DNA of 64,000 bases from Hydrolagus affinis (Eukaryota), in NCBI GenBank assembly GCA_012026655.1, contig JAAILG010000286.1:1-64000 (forward strand). Direction: 5' to 3'. This document shows positions 39,001 to 48,000 of this stretch, one piece after another. Positions within the stretch are counted from its first letter, which is position 1; every line of letters begins with the position of its first letter. Position numbers: made by a program.

Positions 39001-42000
39001 TCACTATAACCTCCTAACCCCCACTGACTTGCCCGCTCTTTCCACTCATCAGGCTCCAGCCTGCTTCATGTCCATCACTTGTGAAGTGAGTGCTCTAATC
39101 ACTGAGTCACAAGACTCTTCAGGTACTAACTGGGTGTAAGGTATAAAACCACAGAAACCCGTAGCCCTTTATTACCTCACCAACTTACTGGCTCTTTACA
39201 TGAGTTCAGGCAGTGACTGTTAGTAGGCAATTTGTCTGTGAAAGGAACCAAGCTGAGCTGATCATGTCGTTATCCAACATCTCCAAACCAGCCAAGGTCA
39301 CTGCATTGAAATAAAACACCTCAGAAGTGAAATTCAAATGCTTTCTAAAAATCCAAGTACATCATAGTATATCCTTCACCACGACTCAGTTATCTTCTCA
39401 GACATTCCTGTAAGTTTGTGAGGCATGACCTTTTGCTCCTAAAAACCTTGTTGACTTTCCCTTACCTCCTGCATTCTCCAACTGAACCCTACCAACCAGC
39501 TCCTCAGCATTTCCCCCTGCATAAATTATATTAACCGGTTGTAAATTCTCTAATTTACGTTCATCTCCTTGTTTGTTTAAATGCAAGGGTTAAATGAACT
39601 ATCAACAGACCCAGCTTTCATGGACAAACTGAAAATATTAACTAGAGCCTCATCTATTTCCTTGCAAATTCTCAAGTGTAACCATTTGGTCCAGTTACCC
39701 AAAAGACATGTAATTGCTTTCAGTTTCTTCATATGGATGTCTCATTGATATATACAATTGTTAGATTCCAAACAGTTTAACTAAACCTGGGATGTTATGT
39801 GTATAATTAATTTCACACATCTGCCACTTCCTAATCCCATTTCTATTCAAATTATTCTTTAAAATATATTATTATTATTAAAGAATAATCAACTCTTCAT
39901 TGGTCTACTTACTTTGTACACAACTAAACATTTTCTTTGGGATCTCGTATTGCTATTCACAGTTGAACTTTGCATTATCCCCTTTCCTTCAAATGCTTTA
40001 CTTGAGACACCGTGAATTCAATTGCTTCCCGGACTTGAAGACTGGATTCTGGTCTCCATTCTAGGAGATATTTATTCCTAGGTGTAGACCAGTTCCTCTT
40101 TCATCACTGGGACTAATACATTGGCATTTCGTTTTGTTTAATAAACCATTTAATAAATTAACTTTATTTAATATATTAAATAAATAACATTTTACAGTAA
40201 TTAATGTGAATAATTTGAGACAATTCAAATATACGGTACAATAACAAGGCAAATGTTTGCTTTCCTTGTTTATTATCTTTATACATAAGCTCTCCTGGTT
40301 TGGATTCTGTGCTCGACCTCTCGTATTTTTTTTCAATATTATTTATAGTGTCTGTCTCGGTTTCCATGTTATGTCCCTCTCATCTCGTGTGATGTTGTTT
40401 CTGGCACTAACTCTTGAGTGGCAAGCTTCTGTCTTAATCTCATTATCTGCCTCTCTCCATGCTGCTCAGAAGTGAACCATCATATGTTTTTGGATGTATT
40501 TCTGGCTATTTCCGGTCAAAATCATCCTGCNNNNNNNNNNNNNNNNNNNNNNNNNNNNNNNNNNNNNNNNNNNNNNNNNNNNNNNNNNNNNNNNNNNNNN
40601 NNNNNNNNNNNNNNNNNNNNNNNNNNNNNNAAAAAAATCCCCTGAACAAAAATGCATTTGAAGAAAACAAAAGAAAAGGCAGCACAGTGGGAGCTTATTC
40701 AAACAAGTCTCTGGAGTTTACTCATTCCAGCAAGTCTCCCCAGATAGTAGAGACCCAGGTGACACGTCCTGCTCCTTCTTCACACACGGATTGTCTTTCT
40801 GTACGTGGTTGAAGTATCTCTTAAAGGTGGCAAGTGGGGGGGGGGGGGGGGGGGTTAAAAAAAAATTAAAAATATTTTTTTTCATGTCAAAGTGTACTTT
40901 GAACTGTATACTTTCAGAAACAAACTGTTTCGATTGGTGAAATAAACTCATTTCCAAAGAAATATAGGGTAAAAAGAATAAAGAATTCAACAATAAAACT
41001 GATTTCACAGGTTCACATTCCCTATATTTCTTTGGAAATAAGTTTATTTCACCAATCGAAACTGTTTATTTCTGAAAGCATTCAGTTCAAAGTACACTTT
41101 GACATGAAGAAAAATATATTTAAAAATTTTTTTACCCCACTTGTCACCTTAAGAGGTGAATAAAGGTCATGGGGGAAGATCCTGGATAAAAAAATAATTC
41201 AAATGACTTATGGCGAATTTTGAAAACTCCCTGCGGGGTTTTTCTTTAAAAAAAGGAATGAGACAACAAGTCTGCAGATTGGTAACCCAAATATATATAT
41301 TATTATTTGTGCGGGCGGGTGGGTGGGGAGAGATACACACACACTAGTATTTGCCTCCCATAAGTTGGGAGTCATCTTGACTGTTTTTGCGACAACGTGG
41401 TGTGGAGCGATTGCTTTATCTGTCCTGGGCACAGGTTGCAGTCTGGAGCTTTCATTGGAAGGCGGAGGCTCTCGGAGTCCCCACCCCAGCTAGAGTGGTT
41501 GCTATGGGAAGGAGGCACTGTTACTCCCTTGCCTTGTCTTGCCTTTCCCTTTGCCTGTCTGCCCTGCCCTGCGCTGGAGGATGGATGCGGTAACTAGCGT
41601 CTGACACCAACGCACTGACTCGGCTCTTTCATGGACATCACTTACCTGTCCCTCAGACCTCCACCCCCACGTTGACCGGACCCATCAAGAGCGTTAAAAA
41701 AAAGAGAGAGAAAAAAACGACAGAGAGAAAGAAAGCGAGAATGGCAAACAATGACAAGTCAGCAGCTGTAAGTCTAACTAACTAACTAACTAACTAACCA
41801 TTTCATTACTTTCCCCCCAATATGATCCATTCAGTCGATCAAATCAAGTTTACAAACACAGGTCGAATAATATTATTAATATTATTATCATGTATTGCCT
41901 TGATTATTTCCGAACTGGTTTAAATATCATTAGTTATCGAGCCATTAGTGTTGGGTGTTTTTTTTGCGCGAATAGATGAATAAAACTCTTGATCAACCAT

Positions 42001-45000: not shown

Positions 45001-48000
45001 GGGAAGGGAAAGGAGAAGTTGTTTGCCATTCACAATTCTGCATCTGTCAATCTTTCATGCTGAAAATAATAATGTACTTAAACATAAGAGAGGGTTCATA
45101 ATGTGAAGACGGATTTCCTGGCACAACGACATTCCAATATCTCCAGCATCAGTGGATCACTAGGTAGAAATCAGGAACAGGAAACCTGGTTGATTCCCCC
45201 ACCCCATTCAAATTCCCTAGGCCACGGATACTGAGGGCAATTGTTGTGGTATCACGGTGGCCTTGATGAGATCAACTACACTGAGCACATACCAGACATT
45301 AAAGCTTGGGCTTTCATGGTCTATATTCATTATTATCACACTTTGCCCTGAATTCATCCTGTGAACTGTTGTCTGTTACAGAGGTCATTAGCAAATCTCT
45401 TGTTTATCTGTTTCCCAGTACAGCATATCAGTAGGTTCATAGCACCAAAAGTTCATGCTAACCATGAAATCTGTGATCAATGCACCAATGATTAAAATGC
45501 AGACATTTGGAGAGTCGTATTTGCGTCAAACAAATCCTCCGTTATTGATAATGAATCTAAAAAAGAAAGTTAGGAAAGGAGAGAAAAAAAAATCAGAGTT
45601 CTTCATCTTTCTACAGTGATCTTATTGTTGGTGTTGATGTGTTAGAAATTCAGCTTCATGTCTCATTCCTATGATAAAATAGGCGGCCAGACGTCACTGT
45701 GATAGAGAAATTCGGGAACAAAAAAAGGTTTGGGGTCCAATCACTTCTATGAGAGAAAAGTGAATTTCAGTAATTTTGTTCTGGCTCCAAGTAATTTCCG
45801 ATTGTACAAAATATCTGCACTGAGGCTTATATGCTGGACTCCCAGGTCAAGATAGTTCTAAAATAGAAGAAACAAACAGCTGAATATCATCAGATCAAGT
45901 TGGGATTTTTCAGTTTTGCTTCATCAATCCCCAATTTATCTTTATTGCTTCATCACACTTCTCATCTCCCACTGAATTCCAACATTGCACCCTTCCCCCT
46001 CAGCTCTCAATACATGCAGTAATAATAATAATTCTTCCATTTTGATTTAACGCTTTTCACATCTTCTAGACATCTCAAACCGTGTCACAGAATATATTGT
46101 AAAGTAGATTGACTGCATATTTATGGGTGAAACCTAGCAGCCAATTGCGCAAAGCAATGTCCCACAAACAGTCGTGGATTGAAATGATCAATTTATTCTT
46201 GTTTTTTTTGTAGGGATTATTATTATTCTAATACCATAATCTGCTTTTTTCCCACAGTTTTGTTGTAAGTCTCATCAGTAACTCTTCAGACCCAGACACC
46301 GACATTGGCCTTCAGTTGACCGCTAGCTTTCAGGATCGCACTGTTATACGAAATGCCAAGGTTTCTGGCATATGGGGAAAAGAAGAAAGAATTTTATCTT
46401 ATTTTCCATTCGCACCTTCACAGGACTTTAAGGTGAGTTGAAAACTTTCATCAGTTCAAACCGAGCATGACCGATTGATGAAATAATAATCCTGATATTT
46501 GATACAGTGCTTTATCATGTCATCAAGATCTCTCAGGGCAATTCACAAGATATACTGTGGTGTGACTTTGTGTATTTTGTGGGCGAATGTGCCGCTTAAT
46601 TTGTGCTCAGCAATGTCCCCCAACGATATATTGAAGTAAGATGAATTTTTCATTTATATCAGACTCTTTCGCAACTGATTATTCCCAGCAATGAACCTTG
46701 GTGTAAAAACGAAGACCGCTGGTAAATTTATTTGCTTCTTAACTTTATACAGTGAACGCACTTAATGCTGCTCCAACCAGATCTGGAGTCTGACTGAATT
46801 CTGTGATAGGGCGTTCAATTTGTAACAACTGAAATGTTGCTTTCAGATGGAAATCCTGTGTGAACACCAGCAGTTCCGGGTCCAGGTTGACGGGCAGCAA
46901 GTATTTGATTTTACACATCGTATAAAGCAACTTCCAAAACTAACCTCTTTAAAAATCGTAGGCGATGTTTGCCTGACTAAAGTGGTTTGATGCTGAAAAC
47001 AAAAACATGAACACAAGGACGGGGTGATTTTTTTTCACAACCATTTATAAATTTTTGTATAAAAAAACCTAGAGCTCCTTTGTCTTGTACCAAAACGACA
47101 AACAACCAGCCTTCAAAGCAACACAATTTCCTGAACATCTTCAATAGTTGGGCCTTGAAAAAGTATATTTTTCCTATTTATTTTATGGGATTCAACGAGA
47201 AGGATTTGTTGTGGAAGGTTCCATGCATTGTCAATTGTTCCAAATTAAATTTTAAAATGCATAAATAATATAGACTAAATTGTAATTCTTTTGCAATTAA
47301 ACATTCCTGAAGTTCCAACTACCTGTTGTTCTGGATTTGATTCCAATTGTTGACTTTGCGCTGCATTAGATTAGGTACCAACAGTCAGAATCACCTGTAA
47401 AGCTTACCATTGCTTATGTATTGAATAAATAAGGCTAGCACAAACTCTAAATGAGACCCCACCTGTGAGCAATTTGCTCTGAAATAAGTTAGGCAATATT
47501 TATATTTCAGCAAAAAGGCAAAGGCAGTGACCTTTAATGTGTCAATGTCAAGATATCCCCATGATTTATTCCATTGTGAACAATCGAGTTTATCGAAAGT
47601 TTCAATGGACCTTAGCAGAATCTCAGTAACACTTTGCATCAGCAGATTTGGCTTCCCTCTTGTGGATATCTTGCACAAGTTTAAATAGTCTGTAAACACT
47701 CAGTGTGTGGGCTGACAGCAGAGTGAACAGCTAACTGTTAGGAAGTAAAATTATCTACTGTTCAGGCCTCAAATGGTATGGGGCTATGGGGAGTTCAGAA
47801 ATGAAGGAACAAGAGGGAAAAACACATAAAACAATGCAGTTAGTTCTCACTGTAGATTGAATTGTGGGATTAATGCATTTACTCACGCCAGGCTTTTCGG
47901 CTGGACAAAGGTAATTTGCAAACACACATGCTGCCACACCTACAACACAAAGTGGTTAGAGCTTCGCCTCACAAACGAGAGACCTGGGTTTGATTCCCAG

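What the first reader, a model, noticed from the sequence alone, without database searches (positions are those of the whole stretch)
41741..46990. Hidden galectin-related gene beside PLEK2: probable LGALSL duplicate missing from the human locus
Seen: four short exons, absent from the ORF track, splice into an intact 144-aa single-CRD protein collinear with LGALSL/GRP but clearly divergent. It has a short N-terminal extension and appears to lack the LGALSL second exon. The W-exon ends at QDFK|MEIL, an F3-type boundary as in galectin-3 and GRP. Established: human LGALSL and PLEK lie on 2p14, PLEK2 lies on 14q23-24, these regions are whole-genome-duplication paralogons, and I recall no galectin gene next to human PLEK2. 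Inference: this is the 14q-side ohnolog of LGALSL, retained here and lost in humans, and probably little characterised.
Basis: partly seen in the sequence, partly recalled or inferred. Interest (0 to 1): 0.7.

Follow-up and report, generated by a model that had tools for sequence, protein, structure and literature searches.

The report
Known galectin-like gene LGALSL2 beside PLEK2
The four exons are real and encode an intact copy of LGALSL2, a galectin-like gene that jawed vertebrates other than mammals keep between ZFYVE26 and PLEK2; it was described in print in 2023, so the find is correct but not new.

Summary
Four plus-strand exons (41741-41767, 42644-42732, 46258-46432, 46847-46990) have GT-AG introns and compatible phases. 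Together they cover the Pfam galectin domain in order.

They tile, residue for residue, a 144-aa protein found on a 994-nt contig (137 of 143 identical). They also match the elephant-shark RefSeq protein 'galectin-related protein A-like' (133 of 143).

The neighbours are a long minus-strand gene with a FYVE finger, a pleckstrin-2-type gene and an EIF2S1 exon.

This is the published locus of LGALSL2 (also called LGALSLA). It is flanked by vti1b, zfyve26 and plek2, is present in all jawed vertebrates and was lost in mammals (PMC10343441, 2023). The chicken protein was studied in 2026 (PMC13696195).

The protein lacks His, Asn and Arg of the canonical sugar-binding strand and keeps Asn, Trp, Glu and Arg. 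It most likely works as a non-classical, leaderless galectin-fold protein.

I could not build an LGALSL/LGALSL2 tree, because no named LGALSL sequence could be obtained. The spliced model was never joined; all searches were made exon by exon.

The parts
41741..41767 (+). LGALSL2 exon 1: start codon plus 8 codons (MANNDKSAA), phase 0 donor GTAAGT
   Evidence: It is 9 of 9 identical to the N-termini of P0004 and of the Callorhinchus protein (residues 47-55 of the latter).
42644..42732 (+). LGALSL2 exon 2 (89 nt): first CRD exon, ends with two bases of a split Ser codon
   Evidence: Pfam profile 1-26 (E 0.12 alone). 27 of 29 identical to P0004. 34.1 bits against the bony-vertebrate LGALSL2 profile.
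46258..46432 (+). LGALSL2 exon 3 (175 nt): middle CRD exon with the degenerate sugar-site strands (QLTAS..IRN..WGKEER)
   Evidence: Pfam profile 29-85, E 2.4e-10. 54 of 58 identical to P0004 and 51 of 58 to Callorhinchus.
46847..46990 (+). LGALSL2 exon 4: last CRD exon with stop TGA (46988-46990)
   Evidence: Pfam profile 86-130 of 132, E 2.5e-9. 47 of 47 identical to P0004.
8986..36000 (-). Upstream neighbour: long multi-exon gene with a FYVE zinc finger split over exons at about 14729-14860 and 13288-13422. Taken for ZFYVE26. Ends are approximate.
   Evidence: Open frames. FYVE E 1.1e-13. No other Pfam family in the other 13 of 15 exon-sized frames scanned. The name ZFYVE26 is inferred from Table 1 of PMC10343441 and from the gene's size, not from a sequence match.
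49646..56160 (-). Downstream neighbour, convergent with LGALSL2: a pleckstrin-2-type gene. Exons: N-terminal PH at about 56.1, 55.15-55.36 and 53.64-53.93 kb; DEP at 51.92-52.23 kb; C-terminal PH at 51.55-51.68, 51.13-51.23 and 49.65-49.82 kb.
   Evidence: The DEP exon hits only pleckstrin 2 (1v3f, 69.9 bits). The last exon favours pleckstrin 2 (46.4 bits) over pleckstrin (37.9). One PH exon slightly favours pleckstrin (51.9 against 46.8).
62670..62830 (-). An EIF2S1 (eIF2 alpha) exon at the far side of PLEK2
   Evidence: eIF2 subunit 1 chains, 83-86 bits, residues 225-276; weak Pfam EIF_2_alpha.

Best explanation
The region holds an intact, four-exon orthologue of LGALSL2 (galectin-like protein 2, also called LGALSLA or 'galectin-related protein A/B-like'). 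It lies in its conserved position between ZFYVE26 and PLEK2, in the genome of a cartilaginous fish closest to the chimaeras.

It encodes a 144-residue protein without a signal peptide. Twelve N-terminal residues are followed by a single galectin-fold domain of the C-terminal-CRD (F3) type.

The canonical beta-galactoside site is half gone. His, Asn and Arg of strand S4 read Gln, Thr and Ser. Asn, Trp, Glu and Arg of strands S5/S6 remain.

Most likely (inferred, about even odds against the glycan rival below) the protein does not bind lactose-type sugars. It would then act inside or outside cells through protein contacts on its better-conserved F-sheet, as proposed for chicken LGALSL2.

Shown here: the gene structure, the domain, the neighbours, the orthology to annotated shark proteins, and the residue changes. 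Taken from the literature: the ohnologue origin, the loss in mammals, and the lack of glycan-array binding in chicken. Inferred: expression and function in this species.
For: Structure and domain.

The exons tile whole proteins. In P0004 they cover 1-9, 10-38, [39 = the split codon] 40-97 and 98-144, with 137 of 143 identical. Against Callorhinchus XP_007886271.1 they are 133 of 143 identical. Six sharks and rays give 99-102 of 143, and ten bony vertebrates 69-82 of 143.

P0004 sits on a 994-nt contig, while the gene spans 5250 nt here. That contig is therefore most likely a spliced transcript with the same junctions (inference).

Family range: 297 proteins at E<=1e-8 among 3600 candidates, with the best 120 listed. 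Of those, 114 are named, all as galectin-related protein or an uninformative name. They come from cartilaginous fishes, ray-finned fishes, amphibians, reptiles and birds, and none from mammals.

Conservation: all 33 columns that are at least 98% one residue in 90 orthologues are kept in the window's exons, and 42 of 48 columns at 90% or more.

A profile built from 27 bony-vertebrate LGALSL2 only gave:
- the eight whole 144-aa-type relatives (six named sharks and rays, Callorhinchus, and unnamed P0004): 214-225 bits
- the three window exons scored separately: 34.1 + 71.1 + 70.5 bits
- chicken LGALSL: 160.2 bits
- human LGALSL: 154.5 and 153.3 bits

At five LGALSL2-invariant positions where both solved LGALSL differ (M25, K97, M98, Q105, V143), the window has the LGALSL2 residue. 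This was read by eye.

Synteny: set against Table 1 of PMC10343441.

Fold: the model of P0004 has pLDDT 85.8 and pTM 0.80. Its best solved matches are chicken and human galectin-related protein (TM 0.87-0.94, 47-48% identity), followed by galectin-5, -9C and -8C.

Sugar-site residues: alignment to a nematode galectin CRD reading HFNPRF..VRN..WGNEER.

F strands are on average more conserved than S strands: 0.70-0.83 against 0.61-0.84, means 0.77 against 0.69. The strand names are assigned by the recalled galectin order.

Chicken data (no significant glycan-array binding, conservation on the F-face, testis and epididymis expression) come from PMC13696195: abstract, sections 3 and 14, and passages of the discussion.
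Against: No tree was made, so orthology against LGALSL proper is not shown phylogenetically here.

Raw identity does not separate the two paralogues at long range. Exons 3+4 are 50 of 98 identical to chicken LGALSL (counted by eye). They are 51 of 105 identical to the galliform LGALSL2 of Bambusicola.

The profile-score gap is moderate. The window's exons had to be scored apart, so the fair comparison uses its close relatives P0004 and P0005.

The name ZFYVE26 rests on a FYVE finger and position only. The Atlas search was undecided (best score 0.84).

One of the three pleckstrin exons that can be compared scores slightly better with pleckstrin than with pleckstrin 2.

There is no expression evidence from this species.

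The half-kept sugar site (Asn, Trp, Glu, Arg) leaves room for glycan binding.
Confidence: 0.9

Rival explanations
1. Same gene, different mechanism. LGALSL2 is still a lectin that uses the retained Asn-Trp-Glu-Arg half-site and the large variable S3-S4 loop to bind an unusual, perhaps species-specific glycan. On this view it is not a protein-binding module.
For: Trp, Asn, Glu and Arg of the canonical site are present in the window. The Trp column is at least 98% conserved in 90 orthologues. The window and the two holocephalan-type relatives keep Arg in W-G-x-E-x-R, where 14 of the other 17 LGALSL2 rows of alignment A1 have Lys and the three elopomorph rows Asn. PMC13696195 reports binding of the chicken protein to carbohydrate-rich vesicles and very weak signals for a few fucosylated probes, and it names 'exotic glycans' as one option.
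Against: His, Asn and Arg of S4 are replaced. The S-face strands are less conserved than the F-face strands (PMC13696195). The chicken protein showed no significant binding on a broad glycan array.
Confidence: 0.35
2. The gene is LGALSL proper, the only galectin-related gene of this genome, moved next to PLEK2. It would then not be a separate paralogue.
For: LGALSL structures are the best solved matches of each exon and of the model. Identity to bird LGALSL and to bird LGALSL2 is about equal.
Against: The neighbours are those of LGALSL2, not ugp2/vps54/peli1. The N-terminus before the domain is 12 residues. Relatives of the same 143-146 aa build occur in the same position-defined family across jawed vertebrates. 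The profile scores are 214-225 against 153-160 bits. The window has the LGALSL2 residue at 5 of 5 LGALSL2-specific invariant positions. The paper reports both genes in all jawed-vertebrate classes.
Confidence: 0.03
3. The exons are a decaying or silent copy: a pseudogene or a gene no longer expressed.
For: There is no transcript evidence from this species. A 100-base assembly gap lies 1.1 kb upstream of the start codon, so the promoter is not fully seen.
Against: The frame is open across all exons. All six splice signals are canonical and the ATG is in a good context. 33 of 33 invariant columns are kept. The gene is 96% identical to a protein from a transcript-sized contig of a close relative.
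Confidence: 0.03

Closest known systems
LGALSL2 / LGALSLA, galectin-like protein 2 (Gunther and Galuska 2023, PMC10343441; chicken protein in PMC13696195)
   Same: Shared features: position between zfyve26 and plek2; a single CRD with the short S3-F3 middle exon; about 144 aa; Trp kept while the S4 key residues are lost; the F-side better conserved; absent from mammals among the named relatives.
   Different: Nothing of kind. This is a holocephalan-type sequence: 93% identical to the elephant-shark protein and 48-54% to the five bird and reptile proteins compared. It keeps Arg in W-G-x-E-x-R, where 14 of the other 17 LGALSL2 rows of A1 have Lys and three have Asn. Its tissue expression and partners are unknown.
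LGALSL / galectin-related protein / HSPC159 (PDB 5it6 chicken; 2jj6 and 3b9c human)
   Same: It is the best solved match by sequence for exons 3 and 4 (E 8e-12 and 3e-12) and by fold (TM 0.87-0.94). It has the same long S3-S4 loop according to PMC13696195. It too has no canonical sugar site.
   Different: Identity is only 46% (exon 3) and 57% (exon 4) to the chicken protein. Its syntenic genes are different (ugp2, vps54, peli1). By recall it has a longer N-terminal part and is 172 aa in human. The mammalian form has Arg in place of Trp. It is retained in mammals.
C-terminal CRDs of the tandem-repeat galectins 9, 8 and 4, and galectin-5
   Same: Same fold and the same F3-type exon layout. They are the next-best solved matches.
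   Different: They carry the full His-Asn-Arg...Asn...Trp-Glu-Arg site and bind beta-galactosides. Identity is 31-38%.
GRIFIN
   Same: It is another single-CRD galectin relative with a degenerate sugar site in mammals.
   Different: The match is much more distant: chicken GRIFIN is at rank 45 with 24% identity. Its synteny is different (chst12, lfng, eif3b, brat1).

Membership tests
LGALSL2 (galectin-like protein 2) | Gene lies beside plek2 and zfyve26 (Table 1 of PMC10343441) | tested here: met
   The PLEK2-type gene lies 2.66 kb downstream and is convergent. A FYVE-finger gene lies upstream. EIF2S1 lies beyond PLEK2. The ZFYVE26 name itself is inferred.
LGALSL2 (galectin-like protein 2) | One galectin-fold domain, about 144 aa, encoded by three CRD exons with the short S3-F3 middle exon | tested here: met
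   Pfam profile 1-26, 29-85 and 86-130 over exons 2-4. The border at 97|98 falls inside the strand at 95-103 of the model.
LGALSL2 (galectin-like protein 2) | S4 sugar-binding residues lost, Trp of S6 kept | tested here: met
   QLTAS in the place of HFNPR, and WGKEER kept. The Trp column is at least 98% conserved in 90 orthologues.
LGALSL2 (galectin-like protein 2) | Closer to LGALSL2 of other classes than LGALSL is | tested here: met
   Against a bony-vertebrate-only profile, the cartilaginous-fish relatives score 214-225 bits and solved LGALSL 153-160 bits. The window has the LGALSL2 residue at 5 of 5 paralogue-specific invariant residues. No tree was made, and raw identity to bird sequences does not discriminate.
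LGALSL2 (galectin-like protein 2) | A separate LGALSL gene exists elsewhere in the same genome | not testable with these tools
   Only this 64-kb window is held. The paper states that both genes occur in all jawed-vertebrate classes.
LGALSL (galectin-related protein, HSPC159) | Synteny with ugp2, vps54 and peli1 | tested here: not met
   The neighbours in the window are a FYVE gene, a PLEK2-type gene and EIF2S1.
LGALSL (galectin-related protein, HSPC159) | Long N-terminal part before the CRD (recalled: 172 aa in human) | tested here: not met
   Only 12 residues precede the first strand. The LGALSL length is recalled, not seen in a call.
Classical beta-galactoside-binding galectins | Signature His-x-Asn-x-Arg ... 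Val-x-Asn ... Trp-x-x-Glu-x-Arg (recalled motif) | tested here: not met
   His, Asn and Arg are replaced by Gln, Thr and Ser. Ile-x-Asn and Trp-x-x-Glu-x-Arg are present.
Galectin fold (Pfam PF00337) | Match to the family profile over its whole length, and the beta-sandwich fold | tested here: met
   (exon by exon). The model of the 96%-identical P0004 matches solved galectin domains at TM 0.82-0.94.

The most novel reading that the evidence does not exclude
The chimaera-type LGALSL2 may be the least degenerate form of the protein. It keeps the Arg of the Trp-x-x-Glu-x-Arg motif, which the other 17 LGALSL2 rows of A1 (sharks, rays, ray-finned fishes and birds) have replaced: Lys in 14, Asn in three. 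If it still binds a defined glycan, it would show what the LGALSL/LGALSL2 ancestor recognised before both lines lost classical sugar binding.
Probability: 0.08. Interest if true: 0.4.

Novelty: already known. Interest (0 to 1): 0.18.

Why it matters
The result shows that a reader working from raw sequence recovered a real, correctly spliced gene, and inferred its evolutionary origin correctly.

For biology it adds one more cartilaginous-fish orthologue of a gene that has been in print since 2023 and is annotated in related species. LGALSL2 itself is still poorly understood: the held library has one functional study, in chicken. A chimaera sequence is useful for conservation mapping, but it opens no new question.

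Tried and rejected
- **Atlas search for the upstream gene.** I searched with the 292-aa exon. The best score was 0.84 and the families were mixed, so it was undecided and is not used as evidence.
- **Pfam on the upstream gene.** I scanned 15 exon-sized frames. Only the two FYVE pieces matched.
- **Representative search.** It gave 2072 hits at E<=0.001, with 150 listed. The list is dominated by multi-domain galectins and carries no names. The single-domain hits of 170-177 aa that are probably LGALSL were left unfetched: they are unnamed and LGALSL is also a human gene.
- **No tree.** As a consequence, no LGALSL/LGALSL2 tree was built.
- **Third word-based search.** It listed only LGALSL2-type proteins among its best 120 of 297, so it gave no named LGALSL.
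- **Rfam.** The only match was one tRNA-like element, probably a SINE head, at 49171-49242.
- **Pseudogene reading rejected.** See the rival explanations.
- **A longer protein with an upstream start, as in the 191-aa elephant-shark model, rejected.** The window has an in-frame stop and no ATG upstream of 41741.
- **Not done.** The human locus was not examined. The joined 144-aa model of the window was never assembled or searched.

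
Full report
**What is in the sequence**

- 41741-41767 (MANNDKSAA)
- 42644-42732
- 46258-46432
- 46847-46990 (stop TGA)

The three introns are 876, 3525 and 414 nt. Each begins with GT (GTAAGT, GTAAGA, GTGAGT) and ends in a pyrimidine-rich tract plus CAG. The phases fit. Exon 2 ends with AG and exon 3 starts with T, which gives Ser, the residue found there in relatives. 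The ATG has A at -3 and G at +4. The frame upstream is closed at 41591-41593, with no ATG between that stop and 41741.

None of the exons is among the 13 default ORFs of 60 aa or more in the region. This explains why an ORF track misses the gene.

I translated and searched each exon on its own. The joined 144-residue model of the window was never assembled, searched or folded. Where a whole protein was needed, I used natural proteins that the searches returned.

**It is a galectin domain, and more than chance**

Pfam Gal-bind_lectin matched the exons in order along one strand:
- exon 2 at profile positions 1-26: E 0.12, below the cut-off on its own
- exon 3 at positions 29-85: E 2.4e-10
- exon 4 at positions 86-130 of 132: E 2.5e-9

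Among solved structures, the best hits of exon 3 and of exon 4 are the chicken and human galectin-related protein (LGALSL, HSPC159; PDB 5it6, 2jj6, 3b9c). Their E-values range from 8e-12 to 4e-11. C-terminal domains of galectins 9, 8 and 4 follow.

**Relatives**

A search with exon 3 alone against longer proteins gave 2 hits among 16 candidates:
- P0004, 144 aa, unnamed, on a 994-nt contig
- Callorhinchus milii XP_007886271.1, 'galectin-related protein A-like', 191 aa

The window's exons tile P0004 without a gap: 1-9, 10-38, [39 = the split codon], 40-97 and 98-144. Identity is 137 of 143. Against the elephant-shark protein it is 133 of 143, against six sharks and rays 99-102 of 143, and against ten bony vertebrates 69-82 of 143.

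The gene spans 5250 nt here, while P0004's contig is 994 nt. That contig is therefore most likely a spliced transcript. This is indirect support for the three junctions, in a close relative rather than in this species.

The source of the window is thus a cartilaginous fish nearest the chimaeras, but it is not the elephant shark itself (inference). I do not take the contig for human.

A search with the elephant-shark protein gave 26 hits at E<=1e-5 among 66 candidates. A search with an alignment of 12 orthologues gave 297 at E<=1e-8 among 3600 candidates. Of the 120 listed, 114 carry organism names: cartilaginous fishes, ray-finned fishes, amphibians, reptiles and birds. None is a mammal.

Their RefSeq names vary ('galectin-related protein', '-like', 'A', 'A-like', 'B', 'B-like'), so the names do not mark orthology.

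**Neighbours**

Upstream, on the minus strand from about 9 to 36 kb, lies a long gene of many large exons. A FYVE zinc finger is split over two of its exons: 13288-13422 (Pfam FYVE E 1.1e-13) and 14729-14860 (weak). The other 13 of the 15 exon-sized frames scanned had no credible Pfam match, and an Atlas search was undecided. I take the gene for ZFYVE26 from its position and build, not from a sequence match.

Downstream, and convergent with 2.66 kb between the stop codons, lies a pleckstrin-type gene on the minus strand (49646 to about 56160). It has PH, DEP and PH exons. The evidence on which pleckstrin it is:
- The DEP exon's only solved match is pleckstrin 2 (1v3f, 69.9 bits).
- The last exon favours pleckstrin 2 (46.4 bits) over pleckstrin (37.9 bits), and ends just after the domain, as the pleckstrin 2 chain does.
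- One PH exon slightly favours pleckstrin (51.9 against 46.8 bits).

Beyond it, an exon at about 62.67-62.83 kb is eIF2 alpha (83-86 bits).

**What is known**

PMC10343441 (Front Immunol 2023; abstract and passages read) names this gene LGALSL2, also LGALSLA. Its Table 1 gives vti1b, zfyve26 and plek2 as the syntenic genes, against ugp2, vps54 and peli1 for LGALSL.

The paper says the gene occurs in all jawed vertebrates and was lost in mammals. It assigns the gene the short S3-F3 middle exon. It derives the loci LGALS8+LGALSL and LGALS3+LGALSL2 from the second whole-genome duplication.

PMC13696195 (Poult Sci 2026; abstract, sections 3 and 14, and passages of the discussion read) studied the chicken protein. 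It reports:
- expression in testis and epididymis
- binding of the recombinant protein to carbohydrate-rich vesicles
- no significant binding on a broad glycan array
- conservation concentrated on the F-face
- Trp kept, but the S4 key residues lost

A search of the held library for LGALSL2, lgalsla, lgalslb and the two protein names found 8 papers. Only these two use the name LGALSL2; by title and abstract, the other six are not studies of this gene.

**My own tests of the paralogue assignment**

I could not obtain a named LGALSL sequence for a tree, for three reasons:
- The representative search returns no names.
- The look-up that would name its hits was switched off.

The likely LGALSL representatives are unnamed, and LGALSL is also a human gene, so I left them unfetched. 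Three other tests stand in for a tree.

(a) I built a profile from 27 bony-vertebrate LGALSL2 only. The scores were:
- the eight whole 144-aa-type relatives (six named sharks and rays, Callorhinchus, and unnamed P0004): 214-225 bits
- the window's exons, scored apart: 34.1, 71.1 and 70.5 bits
- solved chicken LGALSL: 160.2 bits
- solved human LGALSL: 154.5 and 153.3 bits

(b) At five positions that are invariant in 90 LGALSL2 sequences and different in both solved LGALSL (M25, K97, M98, Q105, V143), the window has the LGALSL2 residue. This was read by eye.

(c) The synteny described above.

One result goes against an easy reading. Raw identity does not separate the paralogues at long range. 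Exons 3+4 are 50 of 98 identical to chicken LGALSL (counted by eye). They are 51 of 105 identical to the galliform LGALSL2 of Bambusicola.

**Integrity and likely mechanism**

All 33 columns that are at least 98% one residue in 90 orthologues are kept in the window's exons, and 42 of 48 at 90% or more. The six departures are F13, R18, N19, A61, V116 and F117. For that alignment I used the 90 stored proteins of 140-156 aa. I dropped the longer and shorter models and six unnamed hits, and kept P0004 as the reference row.

A model of P0004, made with 12 aligned orthologues, has mean pLDDT 85.8 and pTM 0.80. Only residues 1-8 are disordered. It superposes best on chicken and human galectin-related protein (TM 0.87-0.94, 47-48% identity).

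Aligned to a nematode galectin domain that reads HFNPRF..VRN..WGNEER, the window reads QLTASF..IRN..WGKEER. His, Asn and Arg of strand S4 are lost, while Asn, Trp, Glu and Arg remain. The canonical motif itself is recalled, not taken from a call.

With strands named by the recalled galectin order, the F strands average 0.77 and the S strands 0.69 for the share of the commonest residue. This agrees modestly with the published F-face conservation.

The N-terminus is hydrophilic, with no signal-peptide-like stretch (read from the sequence), as in other galectins.

I therefore commit to a leaderless galectin-fold protein that does not bind lactose-type sugars and acts through protein contacts on its F-sheet. 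The main rival is binding of an unusual glycan by the retained half-site. Neither is shown for this species.

**Verdict**

The gene is an orthologue of the published LGALSL2, in its published position.

What stayed unchecked:
- a tree against LGALSL
- the rest of this genome
- the human locus
- transcripts of this species
- the supplementary files of both papers
- the sequence-level identity of ZFYVE26

Noticed in passing
window 40531-40630: A run of 100 N (assembly gap or mask) lies 1.1 kb upstream of the LGALSL2 start codon, so part of the likely promoter region is not seen. It was left untouched.
   Followed up: no
window 40851-40969 and 41020-41138: A 119-nt inverted repeat, 91% complementary, with arms 50 nt apart, lies about 600 nt upstream of the start codon. 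It could be a small foldback element or an inverted duplication.
   Followed up: no
window 348-427, 8374-8453, 11924-12003, 16302-16381, 36496-36575; also 36664-36751, 43946-44033, 58562-58649, 63030-63117; and 27618-27714, 49387-49483, 59652-59748: Several families of short interspersed repeats are scattered through the introns of all genes in the window. One copy sits in LGALSL2 intron 2, and another pair flanks exon 3 (46041-46209, inverted to 49291-49460). They produce the long spurious open frames seen.
   Followed up: partly
window 49171-49242 (+): A tRNA-like element just above the Rfam threshold (30.4 bits against a 29-bit cut-off) lies next to one of the repeat copies and just below the PLEK2 stop. 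It is probably the head of a tRNA-derived SINE, not a tRNA gene.
   Followed up: no
window 54606-54805 and 56811-57010: A 200-nt direct repeat, 92% identical, brackets the first two coding exons of the PLEK2-type gene.
   Followed up: no
P0005 (Callorhinchus milii XP_007886271.1), residues 1-46: The elephant-shark RefSeq model starts 46 residues upstream of the conserved MANND start. The window has an in-frame stop and no ATG in the matching stretch, and six of the eight named shark and ray relatives, at 143-144 aa, start at the conserved MA(D/N). The extension looks like an over-long 5' prediction.
   Followed up: partly
P0013 (Heterodontus francisci isoform X1, 170 aa): This isoform replaces the first 39 or so residues by unrelated sequence and matches only from the middle exon onward. 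It is either an alternative first exon or a model error.
   Followed up: no
hit list: RefSeq names orthologues of this one gene 'galectin-related protein', '-like', 'A', 'A-like', 'B' or 'B-like', sometimes within one order of fishes. The A/B labels, taken from zebrafish, therefore do not track orthology.
   Followed up: no
window 62670-62830 (-): An EIF2S1 exon lies beyond PLEK2. By recall, the order EIF2S1-PLEK2 matches human 14q23.3. Here ZFYVE26 lies only about 14 kb from PLEK2 (about 36 to 49.6 kb), with LGALSL2 between them.
   Followed up: partly
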